Shown here piece by piece: positions 9,781 through 25,829 of a stretch of 64,000 nucleotides of DNA; position 1 is the stretch's first letter, and every line of letters starts with the position of its first letter. Source of the DNA: an uncultured Clostridia bacterium (GTDB taxonomy: Bacteria > Bacillota > Limnochordia > Darwinibacteriales > DTU012). The DNA lies in NCBI GenBank assembly GCA_900019385.1, contig FIZJ01000007.1:2796-66795 (forward strand). Direction: 5' to 3'. The notes below the pieces were generated by a model that saw nothing but the letters and a program-made list of their open reading frames with translations, did not search any database and was not told where the DNA came from. The position numbers and the translations under genes were made by a program.

Positions 9781-9825
9781 GGCCAACTTCAAGCCCTGTG
9801 GACTTGCAAGTTGGCCTTTCTTTTT
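9781..9825. terminator. Bidirectional rho-independent terminator between the convergent PL10 and URO-D genes
   Basis: GGCCAACTT-gap-AAGTTGGCC hairpin followed by TTTCTTTTT. It overlaps the stop codon of the minus-strand gene. Confidence 0.6.
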
Positions 9826-11015: not shown

Positions 11016-13226
11016 ATGATGATCGAGATGGTAAAAGTGGAAGCTGGTTCCTTTAAAATGGGCGGAGGCGATCTGAAAGACAGGCCCGACGCGCTCCCGG
11101 TGCATACGGTCACCATCACCAGGGATTTCTGGATCGCCAGGGAACCGATCAAATACGAACTCTTCGCCAGGTTTTGCCGCGAAGAGCTGGGAACTGAACC
11201 CGACGCCGAAAACTTATTGGGATATGTGGTCGGGATCAGCTGGCACGACGCAGACCGGTTCTGCGCCTGGCTCAGCGCCAAGACAGGACTGCCTTACCGC
11301 CTGCCTACCGAGGCGGAATGGGAGTACTGCGCCAGAAACAGCCGGCGCTTCGGGATTGACCGGATGTGTGACATGAATATCAGAGAATGGTGTTTTGACT
11401 GGTATGACGCATATAGTCCCGAAGAGCAGGCCGATCCGGCAGGTCCTGATTCAGGCATGTTCAAGGTTGTCCGGGGCGGCTTCCTGGACAACCCGGCCAA
11501 GTTCAACGCCTACTATTTGGATGTCTGGGCCAGGGGGTCGCTGCCGCCGCATTACCGGCATTTCCCGGGAGACCCCAACGATTTCGGCCGGCACAATGTG
11601 GGCTTTAGGGTTGTGCAGGCAGAGCCGGTGCAGACCAACGGGAAAAACGTTGTCATACCCCTGTCCCTCCATGTCCGGCAGCACCGTCCCCGGACTGAGA
11701 TCACTACCGAAAAGCCCTACTTTAGAAAGCGCCGTTTGTTTCCAATCCCGCCGGATACGGCCAGTCCCGAGGCTGTCAGGGCTTTTGGGCTAAATCCGCT
11801 TCTGCGCCACCACAACCATTCACCTGGGTTCGATGTGGCGCCGAATGGCGATTTGATTGTCTCAATCTATTCGTCCTACCACGAGTATGATCCGGAAGTG
11901 GGGCTGATGGGCGCAAGGCTGCGATATGGCGCCGATGAGTGGGAAATGCCGGATATCTGGCTGAACGCTGTGGGGGTCAACGACCACGCCCCTTTGCTTT
12001 TTACCGACCGCGACGGCACAATCTATCATTTCTGGGGATGGCCCCAATTAGACAATGCCTTTCCGTTTCAGTTCGTCTACTCCAAAGACAGCGGTGCCAC
12101 CTGGAGCCCGGTCCAGTTCCCGAAGTTCGCGGATCGGGCGGAGAAAGTGGCCAGCCAGCCTATCAATACGGTGGTCCATGCCGAAGACGGCTGGTACTAT
12201 GTGCCCTGCGATGTCCAGGGCGAGTCTGCCTCGATTTTGTGGCGCTCCATAGATTTGATCAACTGGGAGGTGCCGCGGGGCAAGACTGCGGGAAGGCACA
12301 GCGCTGTGGTGGAGCTCAAGGACGGCCGGCTGCTGGCGATAGGCGGCAAAAACACCAGCATCTACGGATACATGCCGCAGGCCATCTCCACCGATAAAGG
12401 CGACAGTTGGACAGTGAGCAAGACGCCGTTTCCGGCCATGAGCTCAGGCCAGCGCCCCTGTGTGATCCGGCTGCAGAGCGGAAGACTACTTTACTGCGGT
12501 GATTTTCAGAATAAGCAGGGTAACAGGCCGCCGGGCGCCGCCGAGGATCAATGGGGTTCGTTCGTCGCCTACTCGGAAGATGAAGGCGCGACCTGGAAGA
12601 TCAAAAAGCTGTGGGGCACTCAGCACAAGAAACAGGATCCGGCTCAATTGGGCGGAGCCCATACGCTGGGCTACAGCGTATGCCGGCAGTCGCCGGACGG
12701 GCTGATCCATGTCATCACCTCCAACAACCGGCCCTGCCTGCATCTTTGCTTCAACGAAGCGTGGCTCCTGGCCGACACCGACGGCATATGCCCGAGTGAC
12801 GAGGAACTGATGCGCGAGGACACGGTGGAAATCTCCAATGTCACAACTTATCAGGAGCGCTACGCCGACGGCGGCGTCAAATGTGTCTATTCCGGCGGCA
12901 CTGCTCCCGACGGGCGCTTCCTGCTCCACGGAGAAGAAAAATGGTATTATCCGTCGGGTGAATTGATGACTGAGGCGCGGTACCAGTTCGGCAGGCGCGT
13001 AGGCGCTTACACCCACTACAGCCCGGAAGGCCGCAAGATTTGGGAGTGGGAATACCTGGATGATCATGTTTCCCTCTACAAAACTTACTACACAAATGGC
13101 GGGCTCAGGACGGTAGGGCGTTACCGAAACCGAATCGCCGAAGGGTGGGCGGAACGATATGAGCCCGATGGGAAGCTGGCGGCCCGGGCTCTGTTTGAAA
13201 ACGGGGAGATCGTCAAGGTTGAATAG
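11016..13226 (+). CDS. Multidomain protein: FGE-sulfatase (SUMF1-type) domain + BNR/sialidase-like beta-propeller + MORN-like repeats
   Basis: 736-aa ORF. N-terminal ~200 aa carry formylglycine-generating-enzyme-family motifs (WCFDWY, RVVRGGFL, NVGFRVV). The middle has Asp-box/BNR repeats (SKDSGATW, SEDEGATW). The C-terminus has YwqK/MORN-type repeats. No signal peptide. Confidence 0.6.
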   Translation: MMIEMVKVEAGSFKMGGGDLKDRPDALPVHTVTITRDFWIAREPIKYELFARFCREELGTEPDAENLLGYVVGISWHDADRFCAWLSAKTGLPYRLPTEAEWEYCARNSRRFGIDRMCDMNIREWCFDWYDAYSPEEQADPAGPDSGMFKVVRGGFLDNPAKFNAYYLDVWARGSLPPHYRHFPGDPNDFGRHNVGFRVVQAEPVQTNGKNVVIPLSLHVRQHRPRTEITTEKPYFRKRRLFPIPPDTASPEAVRAFGLNPLLRHHNHSPGFDVAPNGDLIVSIYSSYHEYDPEVGLMGARLRYGADEWEMPDIWLNAVGVNDHAPLLFTDRDGTIYHFWGWPQLDNAFPFQFVYSKDSGATWSPVQFPKFADRAEKVASQPINTVVHAEDGWYYVPCDVQGESASILWRSIDLINWEVPRGKTAGRHSAVVELKDGRLLAIGGKNTSIYGYMPQAISTDKGDSWTVSKTPFPAMSSGQRPCVIRLQSGRLLYCGDFQNKQGNRPPGAAEDQWGSFVAYSEDEGATWKIKKLWGTQHKKQDPAQLGGAHTLGYSVCRQSPDGLIHVITSNNRPCLHLCFNEAWLLADTDGICPSDEELMREDTVEISNVTTYQERYADGGVKCVYSGGTAPDGRFLLHGEEKWYYPSGELMTEARYQFGRRVGAYTHYSPEGRKIWEWEYLDDHVSLYKTYYTNGGLRTVGRYRNRIAEGWAERYEPDGKLAARALFENGEIVKVE

Positions 13227-13265: not shown

Positions 13266-13294
13266 TTGACGAAAATTTAGCTAAACAGTAAACT
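13266..13294 (+). promoter_or_regulatory. Candidate promoter of the 13351→33971 operon, with embedded palindromic motifs
   Basis: TTGACG, 17 nt, TAAACT. The spacer contains the perfect palindrome TTTAGCTAAA. An upstream direct-repeat copy AAAATTTAGTTAAC lies at 13249-13262. Confidence 0.4.
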
Positions 13295-13350: not shown

Positions 13351-14751
13351 ATGAAAAATGGTGTGATATTCGGCAACAGAAGCTTCTTTGCGGATGAGCT
13401 GTGTCTGGACGGGAGGAGGCGGCTGCTTGGAGTGCTGCAAGAGGCGGGTGTCACTCCTGTAATCCTGCCGGAAGACGTGGGAGCCTACGGGAGTGTGCAA
13501 AACCGGGAACAGGCCTTGAAGTGCGCCGCTTTGTTCAAGGAACACGATGATCTTAAGGGAGTGATCATATCCCTGCCCAACTTCGGCGATGAGAAATCCA
13601 TCGTCACCGTCCTTCGGGAAGCGAAAATCGATGTGCCGATTTTGGTCCATGCCTTCAACGACCACCTCGACAGACTCAACTATGAAAACCGCCGCGACAG
13701 TTTCTGCGGCAAAATCTCTGTCTGCAACAATCTGCGCCAATATGGGTTCAAGTTTACCCTGACCACCCTGCATACAGTAGATCCGGAAAGCCCTGTTTTC
13801 AAGCAGGACCTGCAGCGTTTTCTAGCTGTCTGCCGTGTTGTGGGCACGCTTAAGGGCGCTCGGATCGGGCTGGTGGGTGTAAGGCCCGCGGATTTCAACA
13901 CCGTCCGCTTCAGCGAAAAGATCCTGGAACACCACGGCATTTCTGTGGAACCAATCGGCCTGATTGATGTGATCGGCAAGATCGATGAGCTTGGCGACGC
14001 CGAAGCCCAACCGGCTGTGGAAGAAATCAAGGGTTACATGTCCACCGACAGTGTGCCGGAGGATGCCCTGGCGAAGATGGCCAAGCTTTTGGTTGTGCTG
14101 CGGGAGTGGGTCAGGGGCAATGATCTGCACGCAGTGGCCATCCAGTGCTGGGATTCGCTCCAGCGCTATCTGGGGATCAACTCCTGCGCTGTCATGAGCA
14201 TGCTTTCCCAAGCCGGTGTTCCGGCCGCTTGCGAAAGCGACGTCGCCGGCGCCGTCAGCATGCTGGCGCTGCAGGCGGCAAGCGGTATGCCCAGCGCTCT
14301 TGTCGACTGGAACAACAACTATGCCGATGATCCTGACCGTTTCGTCCTGTTCCACTGCGGCAACTTCGCCAAGGAGTTCTACGATTGCGCTTCCTGCCGG
14401 CCGGTGATCGATTACCCGCCGATTCTGGCCTCGACCCTGGGGCAGGAAAACACCTACGGTGCCATCGACGGCAGAATGAAGCCCGGCAAGGCAACCTTCG
14501 CCAGGATCACCACCGATGATCTCACTGGCACGATCCGGGCCTACTGTGCAGAAGGGCAGGTCACCGATGATTCTCTGGCCACTTTTGGTTCTTGGGGCGT
14601 GGTCAAGGTCCCGGGGCTGCAGAAACTGATGCGCTATATCTGTGAAAATGGGTTTGAACACCATGTGGCGATGAGTTTGGCCAGTGTGGCCGATGTCTTG
14701 GCGGAGGCATTGGGCAAGTACCTCGGCTGGGATGTCTATCATCACGCTTAG
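13351..14751 (+). CDS. L-fucose/L-arabinose isomerase-family sugar isomerase (FucI-like, about 470 aa type)
   Basis: 466-aa ORF with a GGAGG ribosome-binding site. It resembles the short FucI-like isomerase family. Its substrate cannot be assigned from sequence. Confidence 0.5.
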   Translation: MKNGVIFGNRSFFADELCLDGRRRLLGVLQEAGVTPVILPEDVGAYGSVQNREQALKCAALFKEHDDLKGVIISLPNFGDEKSIVTVLREAKIDVPILVHAFNDHLDRLNYENRRDSFCGKISVCNNLRQYGFKFTLTTLHTVDPESPVFKQDLQRFLAVCRVVGTLKGARIGLVGVRPADFNTVRFSEKILEHHGISVEPIGLIDVIGKIDELGDAEAQPAVEEIKGYMSTDSVPEDALAKMAKLLVVLREWVRGNDLHAVAIQCWDSLQRYLGINSCAVMSMLSQAGVPAACESDVAGAVSMLALQAASGMPSALVDWNNNYADDPDRFVLFHCGNFAKEFYDCASCRPVIDYPPILASTLGQENTYGAIDGRMKPGKATFARITTDDLTGTIRAYCAEGQVTDDSLATFGSWGVVKVPGLQKLMRYICENGFEHHVAMSLASVADVLAEALGKYLGWDVYHHA

Positions 14752-14765
14752 GCGGAGGGATTGGT

Positions 14766-15428
14766 GTGAAGAAACTGGTGGCGGTTTACACAGGGCAGGG
14801 GCTGGCGGAGCCTTTGGCGCGGTTGATCCAGGCTGAGCTGCCCAATGTCCAACTGGTGAATATTATCGATGACGGGCTGATTCATGATGTGATCAAAGCC
14901 AGTGGTGTGACCAAGCCCATCGCCAGGCGGCTGGTCAAGTACTATCAAATCGCGGCGGAGATCGGCGCCGATCTGATCTTAAACACTTGTTCGTCAGTGG
15001 GCGAAGTGGTTGAACTCGGCAGACAAATTGTGGATGTCCCGATTGTAAGAATTGATGAACCTATGGCCAGAGAGGCGGCGGCCAACTATCAAAGGATCGG
15101 AGTCATCGCCACTCTGCCGACGACACTAAGGCCTACAGCCAGGCTGGTCCAAGCTCAGGCTCACGCCATGGGCAGGGAAGTCACGATTGTGGACGGCCTT
15201 GCGGATGGGGCGTACCAGGCCTTGATCAGCGGCCGAGCAGAGGAGCATGACAAGCGGATCATGGATGTGGGGCGCAGCCTGGCCCAGAAAGTGGATTGCA
15301 TTGTCCTGGCCCAGGCTTCGATGATGAGGATGCAGCAAACCCTGGTAGAAGCGGCACAGCTTCCGGTCCTGTCAAGCCCGCCGTTGTGTGCGGCCTATCT
15401 TAAATCGCTGCTGGAGCGTGGCGGTTGA
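14766..15428 (+). CDS. Asp/Glu/hydantoin racemase-family protein (possible sugar epimerase/isomerase)
   Basis: 220-aa ORF with GTG start and a GGAGGGA ribosome-binding site. It has a two-Cys architecture (NTCSSVG…) like PF01177-type racemases. Confidence 0.45.
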   Translation: MKKLVAVYTGQGLAEPLARLIQAELPNVQLVNIIDDGLIHDVIKASGVTKPIARRLVKYYQIAAEIGADLILNTCSSVGEVVELGRQIVDVPIVRIDEPMAREAAANYQRIGVIATLPTTLRPTARLVQAQAHAMGREVTIVDGLADGAYQALISGRAEEHDKRIMDVGRSLAQKVDCIVLAQASMMRMQQTLVEAAQLPVLSSPPLCAAYLKSLLERGG

Positions 15429-16255
15429 TGCTGAGCCAAACTGTGAAAGAACTGGAGAAAACCGCGCGGCAGATCCGGCGCGACATTATCACCATGATTT
15501 ACCAGGCGGGGGATGGTCATCCCGGCCCGAGCTTGTCGTGCGCGGATCTGGTCACTGCGCTCTACTTCGCTGTCATGAATGTCGAACCGGCGGATCCGCA
15601 CTGGCCTCGGCGGGATCGCCTGATTCTCTCCAAAGGCCATGCATGTCCCGCGGTCTATGCCGCCTTGGCCAGAAAAGGCTACTTCGATGCCGCCGAGCTG
15701 CCCAGGCTGCGCAGTTTAGGCAGCATCCTCCAGGGACACCCTGATATGCTTAAGACGCCCGGGATTGATTTTAGCTCCGGCTCGCTGGGCAACGGGATCA
15801 GCGCCGGGCTGGGTATGGCTTTGGCCGCCAGAATCAGCGGGCTCGATTACCATACTTATGTTATTTGCGGTGACGGCGAGCTGCAGGAAGGTATAGTCTG
15901 GGAAGCGGCCATGGCTGCCAAACGCTATCAGGTTGGTAATTTAACCGTTCTGGTAGACTACAACGGTGTCCAAAGCGGGGGCCGGATCGAAGAGATCAGC
16001 GGTTTGGAGCCGCTTGTCCCCAAATGGGAAGCGTTCGGGTGGCACTGCCAGGAGATCGATGGCCATGACTTCACCGAGATCCTCACTGCCATTGCAGAGG
16101 CCAAAGCAGTGCCTGACAGGCCGTCGGTGATTGCGGCCCGCACCGTCAAAGGCAAAGGTGTCTCATTTATTGAAAACAACAATGCCTGGCACAAACGAGT
16201 GCCCACCAGAGAGGAATGGGAGCAGGCCATGAAAGAGTTGGGAGCTGAAGATTGA
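15428..16255 (+). CDS. Transketolase, N-terminal (TPP-binding) subunit of a split transketolase, copy 1
   Basis: GDGHPGPSLSCADL and SKGHACPAVYA motifs. The ATG overlaps the upstream stop (TGATG). Confidence 0.85.
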   Translation: MLSQTVKELEKTARQIRRDIITMIYQAGDGHPGPSLSCADLVTALYFAVMNVEPADPHWPRRDRLILSKGHACPAVYAALARKGYFDAAELPRLRSLGSILQGHPDMLKTPGIDFSSGSLGNGISAGLGMALAARISGLDYHTYVICGDGELQEGIVWEAAMAAKRYQVGNLTVLVDYNGVQSGGRIEEISGLEPLVPKWEAFGWHCQEIDGHDFTEILTAIAEAKAVPDRPSVIAARTVKGKGVSFIENNNAWHKRVPTREEWEQAMKELGAED

Positions 16256-17211
16256 TGCAGTACTCAAGCACCAGAGAGGCTTTTATCAACAGCCTGACTG
16301 AGCTCGCAGGCCGGAACCGGAAGATCGTCCTGGTCTGCGCCGATTCGGCGAAAGTGATCCGGGCCGATGGTTTTGCCGACCGGTTTCCCGAACGGTTCAT
16401 CGATGTAGGCATCGCAGAGCAGAATGCTGTGGCCTGCGCCTCCGGAATGGCGTCTTGCGGCCTTGTTCCTTTTGTCGCCACATATGCCGGGTTCATCACG
16501 ATGCGGGCCTGCGAACAAGTGCGGACTTTTGCGGCATATCCCAACCTCAACGTGAAGATGGTGGGGGCAAACGGCGGAATCGGCGCTGGAGAGCGTGAAG
16601 GTGTCACCCACCAGTTTTTCGAGGACTTGGGGATTCTCCGGACCATCCCCGGCGTCACCATCGTTGTTCCAGCCGATGCTTCCCAGGTGGGAAAAGCGGT
16701 GGAGGTGATCGCCGATATCCCGGGCCCAGCCTACATCCGAATCGGCAGCGGCCGCGATCCAGTCGTGTTTGACGAGGATCTCCCGTTTGAACTGGGTAAA
16801 ATCCGTATTCTTAAGGCGTACGGCGAGGATGTAGCCGTTTTTGTCAACGGGCACGCCATCCCCCGGGCCCTGGCGGCGGCAGAAGGCCTTAAGGCGCTTG
16901 GGATCAAGGCCATGGTGGTGGAAGTCCACACCCTCAAGCCTTTGGATTCGGAAGCCATCGCCGATGTGCTCAAGCTAACGGGAGCGGCAGTCACAGTCGA
17001 GGATCACAACATCATCGGCGGGCTGGGAAGCGCCGTTGCAGAGGTGATCGCCGAGCGCGCTCCGGTTCCCTTGTCCCGGATCGGGATAGAGGATCGGTTC
17101 CCCGAGTCCGGTGATGCGGAACAGCTCATGGACGCGTACGGATTAAGTGTTGATGATATTATGGATGCGTGCAGGCGCGCAGTGGGCAGAAAAGAAAGGA
17201 GATCATCATGA
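16255..17211 (+). CDS. Transketolase, C-terminal (pyrimidine-binding) subunit, copy 1
   Basis: Recognisable Pyr-binding and C-terminal transketolase domain sequence (…FIDVGIAEQNAV…). The start overlaps the upstream stop. Confidence 0.85.
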   Translation: MQYSSTREAFINSLTELAGRNRKIVLVCADSAKVIRADGFADRFPERFIDVGIAEQNAVACASGMASCGLVPFVATYAGFITMRACEQVRTFAAYPNLNVKMVGANGGIGAGEREGVTHQFFEDLGILRTIPGVTIVVPADASQVGKAVEVIADIPGPAYIRIGSGRDPVVFDEDLPFELGKIRILKAYGEDVAVFVNGHAIPRALAAAEGLKALGIKAMVVEVHTLKPLDSEAIADVLKLTGAAVTVEDHNIIGGLGSAVAEVIAERAPVPLSRIGIEDRFPESGDAEQLMDAYGLSVDDIMDACRRAVGRKERRSS

Positions 17212-18260
17212 GTCACGGCTACTTCCACAGGGTGGCCCGGCAAAGCCCCACCCGGCTTTGGATCAACAACCCCACTCAGGAGGAGGCCCGCAAAGCGATC
17301 GCCGCAGGAGCCATCAGCTGCACCACCAATCCTACATACACTGCCAAGATGCTCCAGGAAGAATCGGAAAAAGACGCTGTAATGGGCGTTATTGATCAAG
17401 TCACATCCACAGCCGGGGACGATGCCAAGGCGGCTTCGGAGATCCAGCGGCAGGTAATCAAGCCTTTGGTGGAAATTTTCTCTCCCCTTTACGCCAAAGA
17501 CCCGCATCAGGGTTTTGTCTCGATTCAAGGCGATCCTTACGCCGAGGATGACTATGCCAACATCGTCGAAGCAGCCTTGGCGGACCGGGCCTTGGGCGAA
17601 AATGTGATCGCCAAGATTCCGGTGACAGCGGCAGGGCTCAAGGCGATTGAACACTTGATTTGGGAAAATGTGCCGATTATCGCCACAGAGGTGATGGCCA
17701 TAAGCCAGGCCACAGCTGTGTGTGAACTGTACGAGCGCACCTGTGCAAGGACGGGCAGAAGGCCGCCGCTTTTTGTCACTCATATCACCGGGATTTTTGA
17801 CGAATACCTGCACAATCTGGCTTGTCAAGAAGAAATACCCATTGCCAAGGATATTCTATGGCAGGCTGGAACCATTGTGGCCCGCAAACAGTACAAACTG
17901 CTGAAAGAACGGGGATATCAAGTGACCATGCTCGGCGGTGGAGCCCGAGGCTTGCACCATTTCACCGAAATGGTCGGCGGCGACATCCATGTGACCATCA
18001 ACTGGCGGGGAGCCGCGGAGGAACTGGTGCGCCGGGATCCGCCGGTGGTCTACCGGATGGACACACCAATCCCTGACTACGCAGTCAACGAACTGCTGCG
18101 CATTCCCGTCTTCAGGATGGCTTTTGAGGAAGGCGGGCTGGCGGTGGAAGAGTTTGCCGATTACGGGCCTGTGCGCTATTTCCGCGATAGTTTCGAAGCT
18201 GGTTGGAGTGCTCTTTTGGAGGCGATTGCGGCACGGCGAAAAGAACAAGAAGGATCATGA
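17208..18260 (+). CDS. Transaldolase-family protein
   Basis: 350-aa ORF with an AAAGGAGA ribosome-binding site. SCTTNPT motif, as in the transaldolase/F6P-aldolase SxxT[ST]NP signature. Confidence 0.6.
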   Translation: MSHGYFHRVARQSPTRLWINNPTQEEARKAIAAGAISCTTNPTYTAKMLQEESEKDAVMGVIDQVTSTAGDDAKAASEIQRQVIKPLVEIFSPLYAKDPHQGFVSIQGDPYAEDDYANIVEAALADRALGENVIAKIPVTAAGLKAIEHLIWENVPIIATEVMAISQATAVCELYERTCARTGRRPPLFVTHITGIFDEYLHNLACQEEIPIAKDILWQAGTIVARKQYKLLKERGYQVTMLGGGARGLHHFTEMVGGDIHVTINWRGAAEELVRRDPPVVYRMDTPIPDYAVNELLRIPVFRMAFEEGGLAVEEFADYGPVRYFRDSFEAGWSALLEAIAARRKEQEGS

Positions 18261-18270
18261 AGGAGTGGGT

Positions 18271-18618
18271 ATGGCGATGGCCGAGAAAGAGTTTCACAAG
18301 CGTTTGCATGAAGAAAAGACAGTGGAGATGCTGCCGGGCGTTTTCCGCACCACTTTGGCGTACAATGGGGCGCTGATGCTGTGCCACTTTCACATGAAGA
18401 AGGGGGCCAAGATCCCTCTCCACAGCCATGAAGCGGCTCAAATCGGCTATGTGATCAAAGGGAAAGTGCGCTTTTTCACCAAGGATGGGCAGGATATCGT
18501 TGTCGAGCCCGGTTCCAGCTACGTCTTTGATTCCCGCCAAGAGCACGGCTCGGATGTGCTGGAGGATACAGAGCTGATCGAATGCTTCACCCCGATGCGG
18601 CCTGAGTACATTGTGTGA
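18271..18618 (+). CDS. Cupin-domain protein (possible sugar isomerase/epimerase)
   Basis: 115-aa ORF with a GGAGTGGG ribosome-binding site. His-rich two-motif cupin pattern (HSHEAAQIGYVIKG…EHG). Confidence 0.55.
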   Translation: MAMAEKEFHKRLHEEKTVEMLPGVFRTTLAYNGALMLCHFHMKKGAKIPLHSHEAAQIGYVIKGKVRFFTKDGQDIVVEPGSSYVFDSRQEHGSDVLEDTELIECFTPMRPEYIV

Positions 18619-18628
18619 GGTGCGTTTG

Positions 18629-19648
18629 ATGGAGATCAGCGTCACTGATGCGGCACAGAAGTATCTCACACCGTACAAGCTCGGGCGTCCGGTGTTGACA
18701 GGATCGGGACAAGCCGGAACTTTCGACGCTCTGGCTGTGGACTGTCCTTTTACCTTTTACCACAACGGTAGGTTTCACATGATGTATGTCGGGTTCGACG
18801 GGACTGGCTATCAGACGGGGCTGGCGGTGAGCGATGATCTGATCAGCTGGCGGCGCAAAGGGCCGATCCTGAAGCGGGATGATCATGTGGGCTGGGATCG
18901 GGTCGGCGCCGCAGGGACCTGGATTCTCAAGAGCACCAACTCCATATGGGATCTGCCCACGCTTAAAAAAGTGGATGGCAAATACTGGATGGTGTACCAT
19001 TCCTATCCCGAAGAGGGCTATGAGGCTGGCCCAGCCCAGATCGGCCTTGCCTGGAGCGAGGATCCGGAACTGATGGAGTGGCACCGTCTGCCTGAGCCGG
19101 TATTCTCCTGGAAGGATGGAGCGGACTGGGAGTGCGGCGGGCTGTACAAAGCCTGCCTGATTCAAGCGAACGGCCGCTATTATTTGTTTTACAACGCCAA
19201 AAACGCCAAGCCGAAAGGCTGGATTGAACAGATTGGAGTGGCGGAGTCCGGTGATCTGCTCAAGTGGCGGCGCTATGAGGGCAATCCCATCGTTAAAGTG
19301 TCGGAAGGCAGGTGGGACAGCCAGTTTTGCGCCGACCCGTATGTAGCCAGGGACGAAGATCGCTGGCTGATGTTCTACTACGGCTTCAACCGGCGGCATG
19401 CCCAGGACGGGATCGCCTTCTCAGACGATCTCTACAGCTGGGTCAAACACCCGGAGCCGATTTTGACCAACGGCCGAGAAGGGGAGATAGACCATTCTTA
19501 TGCCCACAAGCCGTCGGTTCTTTGCCATGACGGCGTTCTGTACCATTTTTACTGCGCCTGCCGCAAATACAGAGAAGGCGATCCGGTAAAAAGTCTCTGG
19601 GAGGAATTCCGGACCATCACCTTCGCTTCGTCTCGACCCATCGCCTAA
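18629..19648 (+). CDS. Five-bladed beta-propeller glycosidase/phosphorylase-like protein (GH130/DUF377- or GH43-like)
   Basis: 339-aa ORF. Repeated W/Y-rich blade motifs (…HMMYVGFDG…, …YWMVYHSY…, …YYLFYNAKN…, …WLMFYYGF…, …VLYHFYCAC…). No signal peptide. Confidence 0.4.
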   Translation: MEISVTDAAQKYLTPYKLGRPVLTGSGQAGTFDALAVDCPFTFYHNGRFHMMYVGFDGTGYQTGLAVSDDLISWRRKGPILKRDDHVGWDRVGAAGTWILKSTNSIWDLPTLKKVDGKYWMVYHSYPEEGYEAGPAQIGLAWSEDPELMEWHRLPEPVFSWKDGADWECGGLYKACLIQANGRYYLFYNAKNAKPKGWIEQIGVAESGDLLKWRRYEGNPIVKVSEGRWDSQFCADPYVARDEDRWLMFYYGFNRRHAQDGIAFSDDLYSWVKHPEPILTNGREGEIDHSYAHKPSVLCHDGVLYHFYCACRKYREGDPVKSLWEEFRTITFASSRPIA

Positions 19649-19670
19649 TATTTGTTTGTGAACGGAGGAA

Positions 19671-20507
19671 GTGATACCCTTGGCTGATCTGGGGCTTTTG
19701 ACCAAGAAAGCACTGCAGACCCGCATTGCCATTCTGAAGATGATTTACCAGGCGAAAGGCGGCCACATTGGAGGGGCCTTTTCCTGCACTGATATTTTGG
19801 TGACACTTTATTATGCCGTGATGCGCATCGATCCCCACAACCCCCGCTGGGAAGGCCGGGATCGGTTCGTTTTGAGCAAAGGCCACAGTGTGGAAGGACT
19901 GTACGCGATTTTGGCTGATTTGGGGTTTTTCCCCAAAGAGGAATTGGACTCTTACCGCGGTTTTCATTCGCGCTTGATCGGCCATCCCACAAACAGAGTA
20001 CCGGGGATCGAAGTGAACACCGGCGCCCTCGGGCACGGTTTGTCAGTGGGTGTGGGCATGGCGCTGGCTGGAAAAATGGACGGCAAAGACTACAAAGTCT
20101 ATGTCCTGATGGGCGATGGGGAACTGGCGGAAGGCTCGGTTTGGGAAGCGGCCATGGCCGGCAGCCATTACAAGCTGGACAATTTGATCGGGATTGTGGA
20201 CCGCAACCGGCTGCAGATCGGCGGCAGCACCGAGGATGTGATGGCCCTTGAGGACCTGAGAGCGAAGTGGCAGGCCTTCGGTTGGGAGGTTCTGGAGTGC
20301 GGCGGCCATGATTTCCAGAACCTGGTGGAGACATTCGGCAAAATCCCGGCTGTGTCTGGAAAGCCGCATGTGGTTATCGCCAATACCGTCAAGGGCAAAG
20401 GCGTCTCGTTCATGGAGCACCAGGCTGGATGGCACCACCGGGTCCCCAATGAGGAGGAGTACGCCCAGGCGCTGCAGGAGCTGGAGCATATGATGGGAGC
20501 GGTTTAA
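19671..20507 (+). CDS. Transketolase N-terminal subunit, copy 2
   Basis: KGGHIGGAFSCTDIL and SKGHSVEGLYA motifs. Paralog of 15428-16255. Confidence 0.85.
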   Translation: MIPLADLGLLTKKALQTRIAILKMIYQAKGGHIGGAFSCTDILVTLYYAVMRIDPHNPRWEGRDRFVLSKGHSVEGLYAILADLGFFPKEELDSYRGFHSRLIGHPTNRVPGIEVNTGALGHGLSVGVGMALAGKMDGKDYKVYVLMGDGELAEGSVWEAAMAGSHYKLDNLIGIVDRNRLQIGGSTEDVMALEDLRAKWQAFGWEVLECGGHDFQNLVETFGKIPAVSGKPHVVIANTVKGKGVSFMEHQAGWHHRVPNEEEYAQALQELEHMMGAV

Positions 20508-20509
20508 GT

Positions 20510-21454
20510 ATGAAGAAGACCAATAAAATGCCATGCCGGAAAGCGTTCACAGAAACTCTCTTGGAACTGGCCCGAAAAGACAGGGACATTGTCGCCCTGA
20601 CCAGCGATGCCAGGGGTTCCGTGACTTTGGAGCAGTTTGCCAAGGAACTGCCGGAGCAGTTTGTGGAAGTGGGCATTGCCGAGCAGAACTTGGTGGGAAT
20701 TGGGGCTGGTTTGGCCGCCTGCGGCAAGAAACCGTTTGTCTGCGGCCCCGCCTGTTTCCTTTCTGCCCGCAGCCTTGAGCAGGTCAAGGTGGATGTGGCC
20801 TACAGTGATTTGAATGTGAAGATAATTGCCGTAAGCGGTGGTGTCAGCTACGGGGCTTTGGGTTCGACCCATCACGCCGTCCATGACCTGGCGGTGATGC
20901 GGGCGATTCCCAACCTGACTGTCGTGCTGCCGTGCGACGTGCATCAGACCAGGAAGCTCACGGAAGCCCTGGTTGATTACAAAGGCCCGGTTTATGTGCG
21001 CATGGGCCGGGGAGCGGTCGCCGACGTGTACTCGGAAGCTCACGTTCCTTTCGCAATCGGGCGGGCCAATGTCCTTCTCGACGGCAAGGACCTGGCAATC
21101 ATCGCCGCGGGCGAGACGGTGCGCCACGCGCTGGATGCGGGCTTGGCCTTGAAAAAACAGGGTGTAAGCGCCCGGGTGATCGACATGCACACGATCAAAC
21201 CGCTGGATCAGGAAACAGTGCTGCAGGCTGCCTGTGACACTGGAAACCTGATCACTGTTGAAGAGCACAGCGTTTACGGCGGCCTTGGATCGGCCGTGGC
21301 CGAGTTGGTGGCCCAGAATTATCCGGTGCGGATGCGGATTCTGGGCATACCGGACGAGCCTGCCGTCACCGGAGAATCATCCCAGGTGTTCAAGTATTAT
21401 CAGCTGACAGGCGACGAGATCGTCCAGGCGGCCTTGGCCATGCTGGATGTGTGA
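20510..21454 (+). CDS. Transketolase C-terminal subunit, copy 2
   Basis: …FVEVGIAEQNLVG…; paralog of 16255-17211. Confidence 0.85.
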   Translation: MKKTNKMPCRKAFTETLLELARKDRDIVALTSDARGSVTLEQFAKELPEQFVEVGIAEQNLVGIGAGLAACGKKPFVCGPACFLSARSLEQVKVDVAYSDLNVKIIAVSGGVSYGALGSTHHAVHDLAVMRAIPNLTVVLPCDVHQTRKLTEALVDYKGPVYVRMGRGAVADVYSEAHVPFAIGRANVLLDGKDLAIIAAGETVRHALDAGLALKKQGVSARVIDMHTIKPLDQETVLQAACDTGNLITVEEHSVYGGLGSAVAELVAQNYPVRMRILGIPDEPAVTGESSQVFKYYQLTGDEIVQAALAMLDV

Positions 21455-21468: not shown

Positions 21469-23367
21469 ATGAGTTTTGAATGGCGCCGCGGGCAAAATCA
21501 GCTTTATGCCGGTGAAGAGCTCATTGGGGAACTGTGCGTTGACCTTCCGGATAAGGCAGTCATTGAAGACAGTGCCGTGGACCAGATCAAACCTGGTGTG
21601 TTCAGGATAGATCTGTCGGTTCTTGTCAAGGAACCGGTGGAGCAGTTCCGGTTGGTTTTGGAGTTCAAAGCCCATTACCAGGCCGATTGGGCTATGATTC
21701 CCGCAGTCAGCTACAACGGGAATCATTGGGGCAGGGGGAACGAACCGAAAGGTTTCACGAAGGACGGTATCCCCTGGGCTTTTTCCTACAGCCGGGCATC
21801 GGTGCCGGGAGCCACTTACTCTGAAGGTTCCCGCTGGGCTGTGGGCCTGTTCGGGGATTTGCGCGCTTCGGACGCCCCGTTTTCCTGTTCACTGCTTCCC
21901 GAGCAGGAACAGGTGGTTCACCGCCTGATCTGGCCGGAAGAAGAAAGCCCTGACACCTATTATATGAAGAACCGGTACCAGGAAGGGTTTCAGCGGCAGA
22001 TCAGCCTGGACGCGGGTGCAAGATTCAAAGCTGGCGCCTATCTGGTCGCGGCGGAGGTGCGCACACCGAAGCTGTCCTATGGTCATCTGCTGGATTTCGC
22101 CTGGGAGGTGAACTATCACCGCCAAAAGCCCTGGTATTCCCCGGAAGAGCTGTGGCGCTTAGGCCTGCACTATGCCAAGCACAGCCTGTATGTGGAAGAA
22201 GGGATTTACCGCGGTTTTTCCAAAGGGCTGCGCTGGAACGGGGCAGAATGGCGCCTCAGGCCCACCGCCAGGTACCTGGCCGGCTGGACAGGGCAGAACA
22301 TATCGTTGGCCAATTCCATGATCCACAGCTATATCATGAGCGGCAGCGAGGAAGACCTACAGATCGGCCTCAACACTTTGCGGACATGGGCTGTCCATGC
22401 CCGCTTGGACAATGGACTGATTTACTGCTTGTTTGATCCGATCCTGGACGGAGGCGCGGAGAATGCTGTCCAGGATGCCTGCAACCTTTCGGATGCGGCA
22501 GTGAACTTTTTCGAAGCCTGGGAACTCTTAGGAAAGATCGGGTTTGAAGACGAGAGGGAACTGTGCAAAGAAACAGCCTTGGGCATCTGCGGCTTTGCCC
22601 TGTCACACCAGTTTCCCGACGGCAAGTTCGGCAAGTCTTGGAACAATGCCGGCGAATGTGTCGATCCCAACGGCACCATTGGCTGTTACCTGGTCCTGCC
22701 CTTGTTGAAGGCGTACCAAGTAACTGGGGAGCGGAAGTATTTGGACGGCGCCGTGCGCGGCTGGGAGTACTATGCCGAGAGCTTCTCAAAGGACGGCTAC
22801 ACCTCGGCTGCGGCGCTTGACACATACTGTATCGACAAGGAATCGGCGATTCCTCTGTTAAAGAGCAGCATCGCGCTTTATGGACTTACCCGGGAACAAA
22901 GGTATCTTGAGATGGCTGAACTGGCTTCATATTATCTGGCGAGCTGGCAGTGGCATTACACCGCGCCGTTCCCGGAAGGCACACCGCTTTTTGAAATGGG
23001 CTACGACACCTTTGGCGGCACATCTGTCTCCGCGCAGCATCATCACCTGGATCCCTTCGCCCTGGTGTTCGTGGAAGACTGGTTCAAACTTGCGGAATAC
23101 ACCAGCCGGGATATCTGGCGGCAGCGGGCAAAGGCCGTTTGGGCCAACGCCTCCATGGGCGTGTCCGACGGCTCGTTGGTGGTCAACGGAGTGCGAAGGC
23201 CAACCGGCAGCCAGGACGAAGGCTTTTTCCACACATATTGGGGAGCGCCCAACCAAAACACGGGCGATCCTATGGGCAATGTCAGTTATTGGCTGGTGGC
23301 CTGGCCAACCGCCTTCCGGCTGCAGGTGCTGCGTCGCTTGTCCGACTGGCGGCAGCTGACAGATTAG
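21469..23367 (+). CDS. Hypothetical protein of 632 aa, possibly an (alpha/alpha)-toroid glycoside hydrolase/lyase-like enzyme
   Basis: AAAGGAGA ribosome-binding site. No signal peptide. Aromatic-rich and helix-rich composition. No motif I can assign to a known family. Embedded in the sugar operon. Confidence 0.35.
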   Translation: MSFEWRRGQNQLYAGEELIGELCVDLPDKAVIEDSAVDQIKPGVFRIDLSVLVKEPVEQFRLVLEFKAHYQADWAMIPAVSYNGNHWGRGNEPKGFTKDGIPWAFSYSRASVPGATYSEGSRWAVGLFGDLRASDAPFSCSLLPEQEQVVHRLIWPEEESPDTYYMKNRYQEGFQRQISLDAGARFKAGAYLVAAEVRTPKLSYGHLLDFAWEVNYHRQKPWYSPEELWRLGLHYAKHSLYVEEGIYRGFSKGLRWNGAEWRLRPTARYLAGWTGQNISLANSMIHSYIMSGSEEDLQIGLNTLRTWAVHARLDNGLIYCLFDPILDGGAENAVQDACNLSDAAVNFFEAWELLGKIGFEDERELCKETALGICGFALSHQFPDGKFGKSWNNAGECVDPNGTIGCYLVLPLLKAYQVTGERKYLDGAVRGWEYYAESFSKDGYTSAAALDTYCIDKESAIPLLKSSIALYGLTREQRYLEMAELASYYLASWQWHYTAPFPEGTPLFEMGYDTFGGTSVSAQHHHLDPFALVFVEDWFKLAEYTSRDIWRQRAKAVWANASMGVSDGSLVVNGVRRPTGSQDEGFFHTYWGAPNQNTGDPMGNVSYWLVAWPTAFRLQVLRRLSDWRQLTD

Positions 23368-23381
23368 GGGAGGGACGCTGG

Positions 23382-25822: not shown

Positions 25823-25829
25823 CAGCGCG

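What the first reader, a model, noticed from the sequence alone, without database searches (positions are those of the whole stretch)
13351..21454. Two tandem split transketolases + transaldolase + FucI-like isomerase + cupin + racemase-like protein: a dedicated rare or branched-sugar catabolic cassette (apiose/RG-II hypothesis)
Seen in sequence: one uninterrupted + strand run encodes a short FucI-like isomerase, a racemase-fold protein, a split transketolase (N and C subunits), a transaldolase-family protein, a small cupin, a GH130/GH43-like propeller and then a second, paralogous split transketolase. Two extra transketolase pairs and a transaldolase inside a glycan-utilisation operon are not housekeeping pentose-phosphate genes. 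Established knowledge: split transketolase-like enzymes (apulose-4-phosphate transketolase) are used in characterised D-apiose catabolic pathways, and apiose is a signature branched sugar of rhamnogalacturonan-II and apiogalacturonan. Pectate lyases PL10 and PL1 flank this cassette. Inference: the cassette may convert a pectin-derived unusual sugar (apiose, or an L-fucose, L-galactose or 6-deoxy-hexose derivative) into pentose-phosphate intermediates, with the two transketolase pairs having different donor specificities.
Basis: partly seen in the sequence, partly recalled or inferred. Interest (0 to 1): 0.7.

Follow-up and report, generated by a model that had tools for sequence, protein, structure and literature searches.

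The report
Apiose plus probable aceric-acid catabolism operon
Inside a pectin (rhamnogalacturonan-II) utilisation locus of an anaerobic-digester bacterium, the cassette joins the known D-apiose transketolase pathway to a second, undescribed four-enzyme module that probably breaks down L-aceric acid, a rare plant sugar for which I found no published catabolic route.

Summary
The genes are there as described, in one tight + strand operon. The cassette is composite, not one pathway.

(1) The FucI-like isomerase is 47-64% identical to the isomerase of canonical apiose clusters. The second transketolase pair falls in the AptA/AptB clade (100% bootstrap) and shares its D469L signature. A GlpK-like kinase carrying the apulose-kinase pocket signature lies 40 kb downstream. 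Together these make up the known D-apiose pathway.

(2) The racemase-fold protein, the first transketolase pair, the divergent transaldolase-like protein and the KdgF-like cupin form a separate module. It recurs in Spirochaetota and Christensenellales, without isomerase or kinase, with a GntR regulator, often a TRAP carboxylate transporter, and GH127 enzymes whose only NCBIfam match is 'aceric acid hydrolase'. In soil metagenomes the same racemase-fold gene instead sits with an OiaK-like kinase and an OiaX-like RuBisCO-like decarboxylase, directly after a GH127 that passes that model's cut-off.

The ketose isomer of aceric acid is the methyl homologue of 3-oxo-isoapionate and the carboxylate analogue of apulose-4-phosphate. 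I therefore propose aceric-acid catabolism. The substrate and the reaction order are inferred, not shown.

The parts
13266..13294 (+). promoter-like site in the 124-nt gap upstream of the operon (weak evidence)
   Evidence: TTGACG-17-TAAACT, 9 of 12 matches. The count of such sites in the region is not above shuffles. Its position in the only sizeable intergenic gap is what makes it plausible.
13351..14751 (+). ApsI-type D-apiose isomerase (short FucI family), 466 aa
   Evidence: Pfam Fucose_iso_C. It is 47-48% identical over 99% of its length to the FucI-family gene lying between aptB and the FGGY kinase in the Klebsiella and Rahnella apiose clusters. It is 61-64% identical to isomerases in Halocella, L096 and L097 clusters of the form TK_N-TK_C-FGGY-SBP-DUF2291-ABC-permease-isomerase. 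It scores only 115 bits on the sulfoquinovose isomerase model, whose cut-off is 700.
14766..15428 (+). racemase-fold protein with one Cys (Cys75) and Ser185 at the second catalytic site. Proposed first enzyme of the acid-sugar module: aldose-ketose isomerase of L-aceric acid (inferred).
   Evidence: Pfam Asp_Glu_race. AF2 model pLDDT 97, with racemase-fold hits at TM 0.67-0.82. C75 is 99% and S185 97% conserved in 136 family representatives. The gene is shared by both module variants.
15425..16255 (+). TK1 N subunit (transketolase clade A, module-specific)
   Evidence: Pfam Transketolase_N. Clade A has 98% bootstrap support and contains the module transketolases of Spirochaetota, Christensenellales and L013. 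It is 56-63% identical to those, against 49% to TK2.
16252..17211 (+). TK1 C subunit
   Evidence: Pfam Transket_pyr + Transketolase_C. Clade A signature in E. coli TktA numbering: D469E, R520S, S385V, H461N, G262K, E468R, with the TPP and catalytic residues kept.
17208..18260 (+). divergent TAL/FSA-family class I aldolase-like protein, 350 aa
   Evidence: Pfam TAL_FSA 74 bits. The best PDB hit reaches only E 4e-5. The Schiff-base Lys aligns in 'VIAKIPVT', but the N-terminal catalytic Asp aligns to Asn in the family-invariant 'WINNP' motif. The gene is adjacent to clade A transketolase and cupin in at least 10 loci.
18271..18618 (+). KdgF-like small cupin, 115 aa (role unresolved: tautomerase, isomerase or ring opening)
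   Evidence: Pfam Cupin_2. Conserved H-x-H-x4-Q...H pattern. PDB hits to KdgF entries 5fq0, 5fpx and 5fpz at E 1e-7 to 1e-8; best hit 9bwf at 9e-15.
18629..19648 (+). GH137-like beta-propeller, no signal peptide (probable cytoplasmic beta-L-arabinofuranosidase of RG-II chain B type)
   Evidence: NF049877 N-terminal region, E 1e-45. N-terminus checked. GH137 is assigned to RG-II chain B in the review PMC13501991. GH137-like genes also lie in the soil racemase/RLP loci.
19680..20507 (+). TK2 N subunit = AptA-type (apulose-4-phosphate transketolase subunit A)
   Evidence: Clade B has 100% bootstrap support and contains E. coli, Klebsiella and Rahnella AptAB plus the Halocella, L096 and L097 apiose-cluster transketolases. 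It is 60% identical to the Halocella TK_N and 46-48% to enteric AptA.
20510..21454 (+). TK2 C subunit = AptB-type
   Evidence: 57% identical to the Halocella TK_C. D469L is shared by all 9 clade B members; R520 and S385 are kept.
59882..60895 (+). LacI-family regulator preceding the kinase
   Evidence: Pfam LacI + Peripla_BP. LacI regulators also head or sit within the Halocella, L096 and L097 apiose clusters.
60915..62396 (+). GlpK-like FGGY kinase, probable apulose kinase (AplK-type)
   Evidence: 49-51% identical to the kinases of Firmicute apiose clusters, 47% to E. coli GlpK. At the GlpK glycerol-pocket positions Q246 and F270 it has Ser/Ser, as do all five apiose-cluster kinases compared; E. 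coli GlpK has Gln/Phe. The Firmicute apiose-cluster kinases also score as GlpK in NCBIfam.
11016..13226 (+). FGE-sulfatase + BNR_2 + MORN protein immediately upstream. The same odd architecture precedes the module in Christensenellales.
   Evidence: Pfam. Gene order in L035 and L045.
21469..24497 (+). two co-operonic proteins of unknown family: 632 aa (beta-sandwich + (alpha/alpha)6, probable new glycosidase or lyase) and 371 aa
   Evidence: No Pfam or NCBIfam match. AF2 and Foldseek for the 632-aa protein. Both are conserved with the cassette in L016, L017 and L102. A homologue of the 371-aa protein lies next to GH127 and the racemase-fold gene in L104.

Best explanation
The cassette is two catabolic modules for the two branched sugars of RG-II side chain B, placed side by side in one operon of a Gram-positive RG-II utilisation locus. 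That locus imports oligosaccharides and dismantles them in the cytoplasm.

Module 1 is the known D-apiose transketolase pathway. The ApsI-type isomerase (13351-14751) makes apulose. A GlpK-like AplK-type kinase (60915-62396) phosphorylates it. The AptAB-type TK2 (19680-21454) transfers the C2 ketol to glyceraldehyde-3-P, giving xylulose-5-P and DHAP.

Module 2 (14766-18618) is an undescribed route for a carboxylated sugar, most likely L-aceric acid (3-C-carboxy-5-deoxy-L-xylose). All of the following steps are inferred.
- The one-Cys racemase-fold enzyme isomerises aceric acid to its ketose, HOOC-C(OH)(CHOH-CH3)-CO-CH2OH.
- TK1, the sister clade of AptAB, uses this carboxylated branched ketose directly as donor. 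The carboxylate stands in for the phosphate, as the sulfonate does in sulfo-TK. The products are xylulose-5-P and 3-hydroxy-2-oxobutanoate.
- The KdgF-like cupin and the divergent TAL-like Schiff-base enzyme process the remaining C4 keto acid. In the alternative order, the TAL-like enzyme first splits off acetaldehyde, and TK1 then converts 3-oxo-tetronate to xylulose-5-P and glyoxylate.

Shown: gene content, orthology and neighbourhood relations, and active-site signatures. Inferred: substrate identity, the role of each module 2 enzyme, and the reaction order.
For: RG-II locus: GH138-type 953 bits, the BT_1020 propeller, GH137-like, and PL10/PL1 plus ABC solute-binding proteins with signal peptides while the glycosidases lack them.

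Module 1: the isomerase matches ApsI-position genes in six apiose-type clusters. The apiose cluster itself is defined in PMC13001218 and fetched from E. coli SE15. TK2 falls in the AptAB clade at 100% bootstrap with the shared D469L. The kinase carries the Ser/Ser pocket signature.

Module 2:
- The five-gene set race-TK_N-TK_C-TAL-cupin, with a GntR regulator, recurs in at least 10 loci of other phyla, with no isomerase, TK2 or kinase.
- A TRAP DctPQM transporter is adjacent in 5 of them.
- GH127 is adjacent in 4. The one scanned (L045) has NF049879 'aceric acid hydrolase' as its only NCBIfam hit, at 725 bits.
- In 43 longer metagenome loci, the racemase-fold gene lies next to an SBF anion symporter (26 loci), a DUF1537 kinase (25) and a RuBisCO-like protein (23).
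- One representative of each was scanned. Their best models are OiaK (402 bits) and OiaX (518 bits). The GH127 of locus L166 scores 1137 bits, above the 950 cut-off of the aceric acid hydrolase model.
- The gene order GH78-like, GH127, RLP, kinase, race, SBF, then GH2, GH137 and/or GH106 recurs in L124, L147, L160, L161 and L166.
- In L180, the RLP-kinase-race-SBF set abuts a complete apiose cluster, mirroring the window.

Chemistry (my reasoning): aceric acid is the only acid sugar of chain B. Its ketose isomer is the methyl homologue of 3-oxo-isoapionate and the carboxylate analogue of apulose-4-P.
Against: - No enzyme was assayed, and no expression data exist.
- Aceric acid has no proton on the carbon that bears the carboxylate, so the racemase fold's usual chemistry cannot apply. 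The proposed isomerase role rests on the one-Cys pattern and on analogy with RpiB.
- The roles of the TAL-like protein (its catalytic Asp is replaced by Asn) and the cupin are not determined.
- About 50 of 80 TAL-family loci have no transketolase nearby, so that family is broader than this pathway.
- The GH127 next to the module in Christensenellales is below the model cut-off (725 against 950). The window itself has no recognisable GH127; the 632-aa neighbour is not one by hhalign.
- The AplK-type kinase is 40 kb from TK2, and at this evidence level it cannot be fully separated from a true glycerol kinase.
- The transketolase tree lacks housekeeping split transketolases and SqwGH.
- That the Klebsiella and Rahnella FucI-family gene is ApsI is inferred by position. 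Carter 2018 could not be read.
Confidence: 0.55

Rival explanations
1. The whole cassette is a single apiose pathway that needs no kinase. The isomerase makes apulose. A transketolase cleaves unphosphorylated apulose to xylulose-5-P and dihydroxyacetone. The FSA-like TAL protein condenses dihydroxyacetone with glyceraldehyde-3-P to fructose-6-P. The second transketolase pair, the racemase-fold protein and the cupin are accessories.
For: There is no kinase inside 13351-21454. The TAL-like protein keeps the Schiff-base Lys. No apiose ABC transporter genes are in the window.
Against: The race-TK1-TAL-cupin set recurs without any ApsI-type isomerase or TK2, and with carboxylate transporters and GH127. 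TK2 groups with AptAB enzymes, which sit beside a kinase in every other cluster examined. An AplK-signature kinase is present in the window.
Confidence: 0.07
2. Module 2 is real, but its substrate is another pectin-derived acid rather than aceric acid: Dha, Kdo, an unsaturated or saturated uronate, or a tetronate.
For: The cupin resembles KdgF, which acts on unsaturated uronates. Pectate lyases flank the operon. TRAP transporters carry many acid sugars, and the closest solved SBPs bind sialic acid. DUF1537, PdxA and a DHDPS-family gene lie downstream.
Against: The recurrent glycosidase partner is GH127 of the aceric-acid-hydrolase type, together with GH137, GH106, GH78 and GH2, which is the chain B enzyme set. 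In the second variant the partner enzymes are closest to the 3-oxo-isoapionate kinase and decarboxylase. That fits a branched 2-hydroxy-3-oxo acid, not a 2-keto-3-deoxy acid or a uronate. No KduI, KduD or UxaC genes are linked.
Confidence: 0.2
3. The cassette is a sulfoquinovose (sulfo-TK / sulfo-TAL type) pathway.
For: The isomerase's only NCBIfam hit is the sulfoquinovose isomerase SftI. Bifurcated transketolase/transaldolase sulfoglycolysis clusters exist. A GH31 gene is nearby.
Against: The SftI score is 115 bits against a cut-off of 700. The isomerase is far closer to apiose-cluster isomerases. The GH31 is alpha-xylosidase-like (467 bits) and scores only 246 on PRK10426, which I recall to be the YihQ sulfoquinovosidase model. 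No sulfonate exporter or sulfoacetaldehyde/sulfolactaldehyde reductase was seen. The surrounding glycosidases are RG-II specific.
Confidence: 0.02
4. The transketolases and the transaldolase are the organism's ordinary pentose-phosphate enzymes that happen to sit in a sugar operon.
For: Split transketolases are common in Firmicutes. NCBIfam's best names are plain 'transketolase' and 'transaldolase'.
Against: All of these scores are below the equivalog cut-offs. Asp469 of the E. coli TktA reference is Glu in TK1 and Leu in TK2, and TK1 has lost R520 and S385. The TAL-like protein matches solved transaldolases only at E 4e-5 and lacks the catalytic Asp. Both pairs belong to clades defined by specialised gene neighbourhoods.
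Confidence: 0.02

Closest known systems
D-apiose transketolase pathway (ApsI, AplK, AptA/AptB; Carter et al. 2018, Nat Chem Biol 14:696; MetaCyc PWY-8089; cluster described for E. coli ST131 in PMC13001218)
   Same: An isomerase of the same FucI-like family (47-64% identity to cluster members). A TK2 pair inside the AptAB clade with the same D469L substitution. A GlpK-like kinase with the same pocket signature.
   Different: The genes are dispersed: isomerase, then 5 kb of other genes, then TK2, with the kinase 40 kb away. There is no apiose SBP/DUF2291 ABC transporter. The genes are embedded among cytoplasmic RG-II glycosidases, so apiose is probably released inside the cell.
D-apionate pathways with the DUF1537 kinase OiaK and RuBisCO-like decarboxylases OiaC/OiaX (Carter et al. 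2018)
   Same: In soil metagenome loci, the racemase-fold gene of module 2 is paired with a kinase and a RuBisCO-like protein whose best models are OiaK and OiaX. The proposed intermediate is the methyl homologue of 3-oxo-isoapionate.
   Different: Both score well below the equivalog cut-offs (402 and 518 bits against 700). No ApnO oxidoisomerase is needed or seen next to them; a racemase-fold protein takes that position. The window itself uses the transketolase/TAL-like/cupin variant instead.
Sulfoglycolytic transketolase and transaldolase pathways (SqwGH, SftT; bifurcated in Faecalicatena, PMC11659671)
   Same: Works alike: an unphosphorylated ketose carrying an anionic group would serve as donor for a split transketolase and/or a transaldolase-family enzyme, with no kinase, in anaerobes.
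   Different: The anion would be a carboxylate on a branched carbon, not a terminal sulfonate. TK1 is the sister clade of AptAB. The isomerase here is racemase-fold, not FucI-like or YihS-like.
KdgF (small cupin of uronate metabolism; PDB 5fq0, 5fpx, 5fpz)
   Same: Size (115 aa), Cupin_2 fold, the His/His/Gln/His pattern, and occurrence in a pectin locus.
   Different: Only E 1e-7 to 1e-8 similarity. It is always linked to the clade A transketolase and the TAL-like protein, not to KduI or KduD.
BT1003-type GH127 aceric acid hydrolase and the B. thetaiotaomicron RG-II PULs (Ndeh et al. 2017; PMC13501991)
   Same: The glycosidase families that accompany the module (GH127, GH137, GH106, GH78, GH2, GH138, GH143) are those that dismantle RG-II.
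   Different: Those studies stop at the release of the monosaccharides. No downstream catabolism of aceric acid is described in the papers I could search.

Membership tests
D-apiose transketolase pathway (ApsI/AplK/AptAB) | FucI-family D-apiose isomerase homologous to the one in characterised-type clusters | tested here: met
   47-48% identity over 99% of its length to the Klebsiella and Rahnella cluster isomerases, and 61-64% to the Halocella, L096 and L097 cluster isomerases. That this gene is ApsI is inferred from its position, plus the statement in PMC13001218 that Pectobacterium-type clusters carry apsI.
D-apiose transketolase pathway (ApsI/AplK/AptAB) | Split transketolase orthologous to AptA/AptB | tested here: met
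   TK2 falls in a 100% bootstrap clade with E. coli SE15 aptA/aptB and five other apiose-cluster pairs. D469L is shared by all nine members. Caveat: the tree contains no housekeeping split transketolases.
D-apiose transketolase pathway (ApsI/AplK/AptAB) | FGGY apulose kinase | tested here: inconclusive
   There is none in the cassette. The FGGY gene at 60915-62396 shares the Ser/Ser pocket signature of all five apiose-cluster kinases compared, against Gln/Phe in E. coli GlpK. It also scores as GlpK (619 bits on the subfamily model), and only one true GlpK was compared.
D-apiose transketolase pathway (ApsI/AplK/AptAB) | Apiose-binding SBP with DUF2291 ABC transporter in the cluster | tested here: not met
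   tblastn of the Klebsiella SBP, DUF2291, ATPase and permease against the window gave no hit at E 1e-5.
D-apiose transketolase pathway (ApsI/AplK/AptAB) | Enzymatic conversion of apiose to apulose-4-P and then to Xu5P and DHAP | not testable with these tools
   Needs enzyme assays.
Canonical pentose-phosphate transketolase | Substrate-channel residues R358, S385, H461, D469 and R520 (E. coli TktA numbering) | tested here: not met
   TK1 has V385, N461, E469 and S520. TK2 has S461 and L469. The TPP and catalytic residues are retained in both.
Transaldolase / fructose-6-phosphate aldolase (PF00923) | Pfam model above the gathering score and a Schiff-base lysine | tested here: met
   73.7 bits against a cut-off of 27. 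The Lys in 'VIAKIPVT' aligns to the TAL/FSA lysine and is invariant in 20 homologues (K136).
Transaldolase / fructose-6-phosphate aldolase (PF00923) | N-terminal catalytic Asp (TalB D17 / FSA D6) | tested here: not met
   It aligns to Asn in the invariant 'WINNP' motif. The alignment in that segment is weak (10.5 bits), so this is tentative.
Asp/Glu/hydantoin racemase superfamily (PF01177) | Two-domain racemase fold | tested here: met
   Pfam 67 bits. AF2 pLDDT 97, with Foldseek TM 0.67-0.82 to glutamate, aspartate, hydantoin and allantoin racemases.
Asp/Glu/hydantoin racemase superfamily (PF01177) | Pair of catalytic cysteines, one per domain | tested here: not met
   The first Cys is present (C75, 99% conserved). 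The second site is Ser185 in 'AQxSM' (97% conserved) across 136 representatives.
Sulfoglycolysis (sulfo-TK / sulfo-TAL) | SftI/SqvD-type sulfoquinovose isomerase and a sulfoquinovosidase | tested here: not met
   SftI model 115 bits against 700. The GH31 scores 246 against 553 on PRK10426 (which I recall to be the YihQ model) and 467 on the alpha-xylosidase model.
Aceric acid catabolic module (proposed here; no published definition) | Genomic linkage to a GH127 aceric acid hydrolase | tested here: inconclusive
   Met in related loci: L166 scores 1137 bits against a cut-off of 950, L045 scores 725, and GH127 is adjacent in 4 of about 10 module loci and in 10 of the 43 clustered metagenome loci. 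Not met in the window itself, which has no recognisable GH127.

The most novel reading that the evidence does not exclude
The racemase-fold protein, clade A split transketolase, Asp-less TAL-like protein and KdgF-like cupin make up a previously undescribed, kinase-free pathway for L-aceric acid. A one-cysteine racemase-fold enzyme would act as an aldose-ketose isomerase. A transketolase would take a C3-carboxylated branched ketose as donor. A parallel variant in soil bacteria would send the same intermediate through an OiaK-like kinase and a RuBisCO-like decarboxylase. If so, the catabolism of RG-II's rarest sugar has two routes that mirror the two known apiose routes.
Probability: 0.4. Interest if true: 0.8.

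Novelty: new variant of a known kind. Interest (0 to 1): 0.7.

Why it matters
RG-II is the most complex plant polysaccharide. Its enzymatic dismantling has been worked out, but what bacteria then do with its rare sugars is largely unknown. I found no described catabolism for aceric acid in the searchable literature.

This locus and its relatives give a concrete gene set of four small soluble enzymes plus a transporter. They also give a chemically coherent hypothesis that can be tested directly in vitro.

If right, it would add:
- a new transketolase donor class (carboxylated branched ketoses);
- a new activity for the Asp/Glu racemase fold;
- a new RuBisCO-like protein function in the soil variant;
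- markers for predicting which gut, digester and soil bacteria use RG-II completely.

Even the conservative part is useful. It shows that the apiose transketolase pathway occurs, in dispersed form and without its usual transporter, inside Gram-positive RG-II loci.

Tried and rejected
1. Kinase-free apiose route (TK on free apulose, FSA-like fixation of dihydroxyacetone). I held this until an AplK-signature kinase turned up in the window and the race-TK1-TAL-cupin set proved to be an independent module.

2. GH137-like protein as the chain D (Araf-Dha) enzyme. Corrected: the review PMC13501991 assigns GH137 to chain B and GH142 to chain D.

3. The 632-aa protein as a divergent GH127. hhalign gave probability about 1%. 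Its fold is beta-sandwich + (alpha/alpha)6, with only loose matches: the best is a polysaccharide lyase, TM 0.38-0.43.

4. Racemase-fold protein as an arylmalonate-decarboxylase-like enzyme. Structural neighbours are generic racemases, with AMDase only at ranks 34 and 46. This is not excluded, but an isomerase role explains why both module variants share the gene.

5. Sulfoquinovose pathway: rejected on scores and context.

6. Riboswitch upstream of the operon: no Rfam match at gathering score anywhere in the window.

7. Specificity of the TRAP solute-binding protein from solved structures. Only distant relatives were found (138 bits or less, sialic-acid binders on top), which is not informative.

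8. Carter 2018 and Zhang 2016 could not be read. Statements about ApsI, OiaK, OiaX, DUF1537 and PdxA2 rest on NCBIfam model names, on citing papers and on my own knowledge.

9. The identity of PDB 5mqo as BT1003 could not be verified. I replaced that argument with the NCBIfam aceric acid hydrolase model.

10. First bootstrap run timed out and was redone with a faster distance method.

Full report
OBSERVATION

The same gene calls appear on identical public contigs from anaerobic-digester metagenomes and two MAGs.
- The FucI-like protein is a short form (466 aa, C-terminal domain only).
- The two split transketolase pairs are paralogues: 49% identity for the N subunits and 40% for the C subunits.
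- The 'propeller' is GH137-like: the N-terminal part of the BT0996-type model NF049877, E 1e-45.
- Genes from 13351 to 33971 are separated by -46 to 31 nt and are preceded by a 124-nt gap.
- That gap holds the only plausible promoter-like site. No + strand terminator-like site occurs before 23885.
- No Rfam family is matched anywhere in the window.

CONTEXT

The window is an RG-II utilisation locus of an organism that uses ABC transporters.
- Secreted proteins, by their N-termini: PL10, PL1 and two solute-binding proteins.
- Glycosidases without signal peptides: a GH138-type alpha-galacturonidase (NF049878, 953 bits), a BT_1020/GH143-type propeller with a sialidase-like CBM, and GH106-like, GH137-like, GH29, GH31 (alpha-xylosidase-like), GH42 and GH2 genes.
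- This pattern suggests that oligosaccharides are imported and taken apart in the cytoplasm.

MODULE 1: APIOSE

The isomerase's only NCBIfam hit is the sulfoquinovose isomerase SftI, at 115 bits against a cut-off of 700. Its real relatives lie elsewhere. A homologue with 63% identity in Halocella sp. SP3-1 sits in the cluster LacI-TK_N-TK_C-FGGY-SBP-DUF2291-ABC-permease-isomerase-RbsD/FucU. Two further homologues (61-64%) sit in the same arrangement.

This is the architecture of the apiose cluster described for E. coli ST131 and Pectobacterium (PMC13001218), which I fetched from E. coli SE15. The Klebsiella and Rahnella versions carry a FucI-family gene between aptB and the kinase. That is where Pectobacterium-type clusters have apsI and the E. 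coli version has none. The window protein is 47-48% identical to it over 99% of its length. A 55% homologue in an Anaerolineae MAG lies near a GH140 'Apiosidase' gene.

I built a neighbour-joining tree of concatenated N+C subunits (565 columns, 200 bootstraps, E. coli TktA as outgroup). It gives three clades.
- TK2 falls with the E. coli, Klebsiella and Rahnella AptAB pairs and the three Firmicute apiose-cluster pairs (100%). It is sister to the Firmicute ones (100%; 60% and 57% identity to Halocella).
- All nine members of this clade have Leu at the position of E. coli TktA Asp469.

The cassette has no kinase. The FGGY gene at 60915-62396, behind a LacI regulator, is the candidate.
- It is 49-51% identical to the Firmicute apiose-cluster kinases and 47% to E. 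coli GlpK.
- At the glycerol-pocket residues Q246 and F270 of GlpK (assignment from my knowledge of the GlpK structure), it has Ser/Ser. So do all five apiose-cluster kinases compared ('GDSQ', 'GTG[ST]S' against 'GDQQ', 'GTGCF').
- The Firmicute apiose-cluster kinases are themselves called GlpK by NCBIfam, so the GlpK label on the window gene does not argue against this.
- No apiose SBP/DUF2291 transporter is present.

MODULE 2: A CARBOXYLATED SUGAR

The TAL-like protein is remote from solved transaldolases (best E 4e-5). It keeps the Schiff-base Lys, but aligns an invariant Asn ('WINNP') to the catalytic Asp. Its family is large.

A scan of one genome per species returned 80 loci. Only two close Bacillota digester MAGs have the whole cassette. 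However, race-TK_N-TK_C-TAL-cupin plus a GntR/FCD regulator recurs in Spirochaetota (including Sphaerochaeta), Christensenellales and others. In those loci there is no isomerase, no TK2 and no kinase.
- Their transketolases form clade A with TK1 (98% bootstrap).
- They share D469E, R520S, S385V/I/A, H461N, G262K and E468R.
- A TRAP DctPQM transporter is adjacent in five loci, which points to a carboxylate substrate.
- A GH127 is adjacent in four. For the one scanned (L045), the only NCBIfam match is 'aceric acid hydrolase', at 725 bits.
- In Christensenellales, the unusual FGE-sulfatase+BNR_2+MORN protein that precedes the window cassette, and an MGH1-like glycosidase, are also present.

THE RACEMASE-FOLD PROTEIN

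This protein defines a distinct family: 2431 representatives at E<1e-3. Cys75 is 99% conserved, and Ser185 occupies the second catalytic site at 97%. The model is confident (pLDDT 97) and matches racemases generically.

A metagenome scan with this family returned 80 loci. I clustered the ORFs of the 43 loci of at least 6 kb.
- The gene is flanked by an SBF-family anion symporter (26 loci), a DUF1537 kinase (25) and a RuBisCO-like protein (23).
- GH2 (12), GH127 (10), GH137-like, GH106 and GH78-type genes lie close by.
- I scanned one representative of each cluster. [quoted passage not shown] Both are below the equivalog cut-offs.
- The GH127 of L166 passes the aceric acid hydrolase cut-off (1137 bits against 950).
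- The order GH78-like, GH127, RLP, kinase, race, SBF, then GH2, GH137 and/or GH106 repeats in five loci.
- In L180, the RLP-kinase-race-SBF set abuts a complete apiose cluster. The apiose/racemase-fold juxtaposition seen in the window therefore recurs with the other variant.

MECHANISM (INFERRED)

GH127, GH137, GH106, GH78 and GH2 are the enzyme families that dismantle RG-II chain B (PMC13501991). The only acid sugar in chain B is L-aceric acid. Its aldose-to-ketose isomer, HOOC-C(OH)(CHOH-CH3)-CO-CH2OH, has two useful analogies.
- It is the methyl homologue of 3-oxo-isoapionate, the OiaK and RLP substrate (from my knowledge of Carter 2018; the enzyme names are confirmed).
- It is the carboxylate analogue of apulose-4-phosphate, the AptAB substrate.

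This explains three observations at once. Both variants share one enzyme, the isomerase; a single catalytic base suffices for a 1,2-proton shift, as in RpiB. The soil variant continues with OiaK-like and OiaX-like enzymes. The anaerobe variant continues with a sister clade of AptAB and needs no kinase, much as the sulfonate replaces the phosphate in sulfo-TK.

I favour TK1 acting on the branched ketoacid, giving Xu5P and 3-hydroxy-2-oxobutanoate. TK1 keeps an acidic residue at position 469, and it gains K262 and R468. The alternative order is that the TAL-like enzyme releases acetaldehyde first, and TK1 then converts 3-oxo-tetronate to Xu5P and glyoxylate. I cannot exclude it. The exact roles of the TAL-like protein and the KdgF-like cupin remain open.

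LIMITS

- Nothing was assayed.
- The window has no recognisable GH127. The 632-aa neighbour is a different, unclassified beta-sandwich + (alpha/alpha)6 protein.
- About 50 of 80 TAL-family loci lack a transketolase.
- The transketolase tree lacks housekeeping split enzymes and SqwGH.
- Two key papers could not be read.
- I found no description of aceric acid catabolism in the searchable library. That library is incomplete.

VERDICT

The apiose/RG-II interpretation is right for the isomerase and TK2, and for the idea of two donor specificities. The rest of the cassette is a second module, most likely for aceric acid.

In novelty terms, the apiose genes are a new member of a known pathway. The second module is a new variant of the known kind, transketolase-based and RLP-based catabolism of branched sugars. 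Its predictions are directly testable.

Noticed in passing
window 6427-7068 (-), 7093-8322 (-), 9824-10909 (-), 50508-51653 (+); also L010: A B12-binding protein, a PocR-AraC regulator and two URO-D/MtaA-like proteins lie in the RG-II locus. In L010, an ApsI-family isomerase sits among URO-D, B12-binding and RACo genes. This suggests corrinoid-dependent demethylation of the 2-O-methyl sugars of RG-II, or handling of methanol from pectin methyl esters.
   Followed up: no
window 24503-27799: A DUF1537 kinase (best model D-threonate kinase, 252 bits), a PdxA-family dehydrogenase (D-threonate-4-P dehydrogenase model 331 bits; PdxA model 336 bits, above its cut-off) and a DHDPS-family aldolase follow in the same operon. 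A hand-drawn scheme fits Dha catabolism: aldol cleavage to pyruvate plus D-threuronate, reduction to D-threonate (the D-lyxo configuration gives D-threo), phosphorylation, then oxidative decarboxylation to DHAP. A GH143-type Dha-releasing enzyme is at 52780-54576.
   Followed up: partly
window 21469-23367: A 632-aa protein with no Pfam or NCBIfam match. It has 543 homologues, all 'hypothetical' (Paenibacillus, Cohnella, Chloroflexi). The AF2 model (pLDDT 80) shows an N-terminal beta-sandwich plus an (alpha/alpha)6 barrel. The best Foldseek hit is polysaccharide lyase BACCELL_00875, at low TM. In Paenibacillus the homologue lies next to GH2 and GH29. It is probably an unclassified glycosidase or lyase family.
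   Followed up: partly
window 23382-24497; L104 6494-7570: A 371-aa protein with no family match, apart from a faint resemblance to cobalamin-independent methionine synthase. It is 86% conserved in the sister MAGs. A 36% homologue lies beside GH127 and the racemase-fold gene in a metagenome locus.
   Followed up: no
window 11016-13226; L035 264-2480; L045 287-2503: An unusual fusion of an FGE-sulfatase-like domain, a BNR_2 sialidase-like propeller and MORN repeats, with no signal peptide. It lies directly upstream of the cassette, and again upstream of GH127 and the module in Christensenellales. It may be a Kdo- or Dha-type glycosidase.
   Followed up: no
L032, L033, L043, L046, L061, L068, L071, L078, L081, L090: In Chloroflexota and one Acidobacteriaceae MAG, the TAL-like family is paired with split transketolases roughly equidistant from TK1 and TK2. 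Seven of the eight pairs placed in the tree form a third clade (100% bootstrap) with Ala at position 469. This would be a further, unexamined TK/TAL-type pathway.
   Followed up: no
L015 (= L023) 3196-7816: In an Acidobacteriota MAG, the TAL-like gene faces a full-length FucI, RpiB, an AP_endonuc_2 isomerase and the dihydroxyacetone kinase subunits Dak1/Dak2. This hints that some members of the TAL-like family work with dihydroxyacetone.
   Followed up: no
window 32134-35480: An enolase-superfamily dehydratase (closest model L-talarate/galactarate dehydratase, 182 bits), an SDR and a GH29 fucosidase close the operon. They could be a non-phosphorylative L-fucose or L-galactose route.
   Followed up: no
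window 5310-6230 (-): A Dam-type N6-adenine DNA methyltransferase sits alone between the GH106-like gene and the B12-binding gene.
   Followed up: no
L124, L147, L160, L161, L166, L180 (metagenome contigs): Soil and peat-type contigs carry a conserved locus: GFO/IDH, SSF transporter, GH78-like, GH127, RuBisCO-like protein, DUF1537 kinase, racemase-fold protein and SBF symporter, followed in most of them by GH2, GH137 and/or GH106. In effect this is an RG-II chain B locus with a RuBisCO-like protein at its centre.
   Followed up: partly
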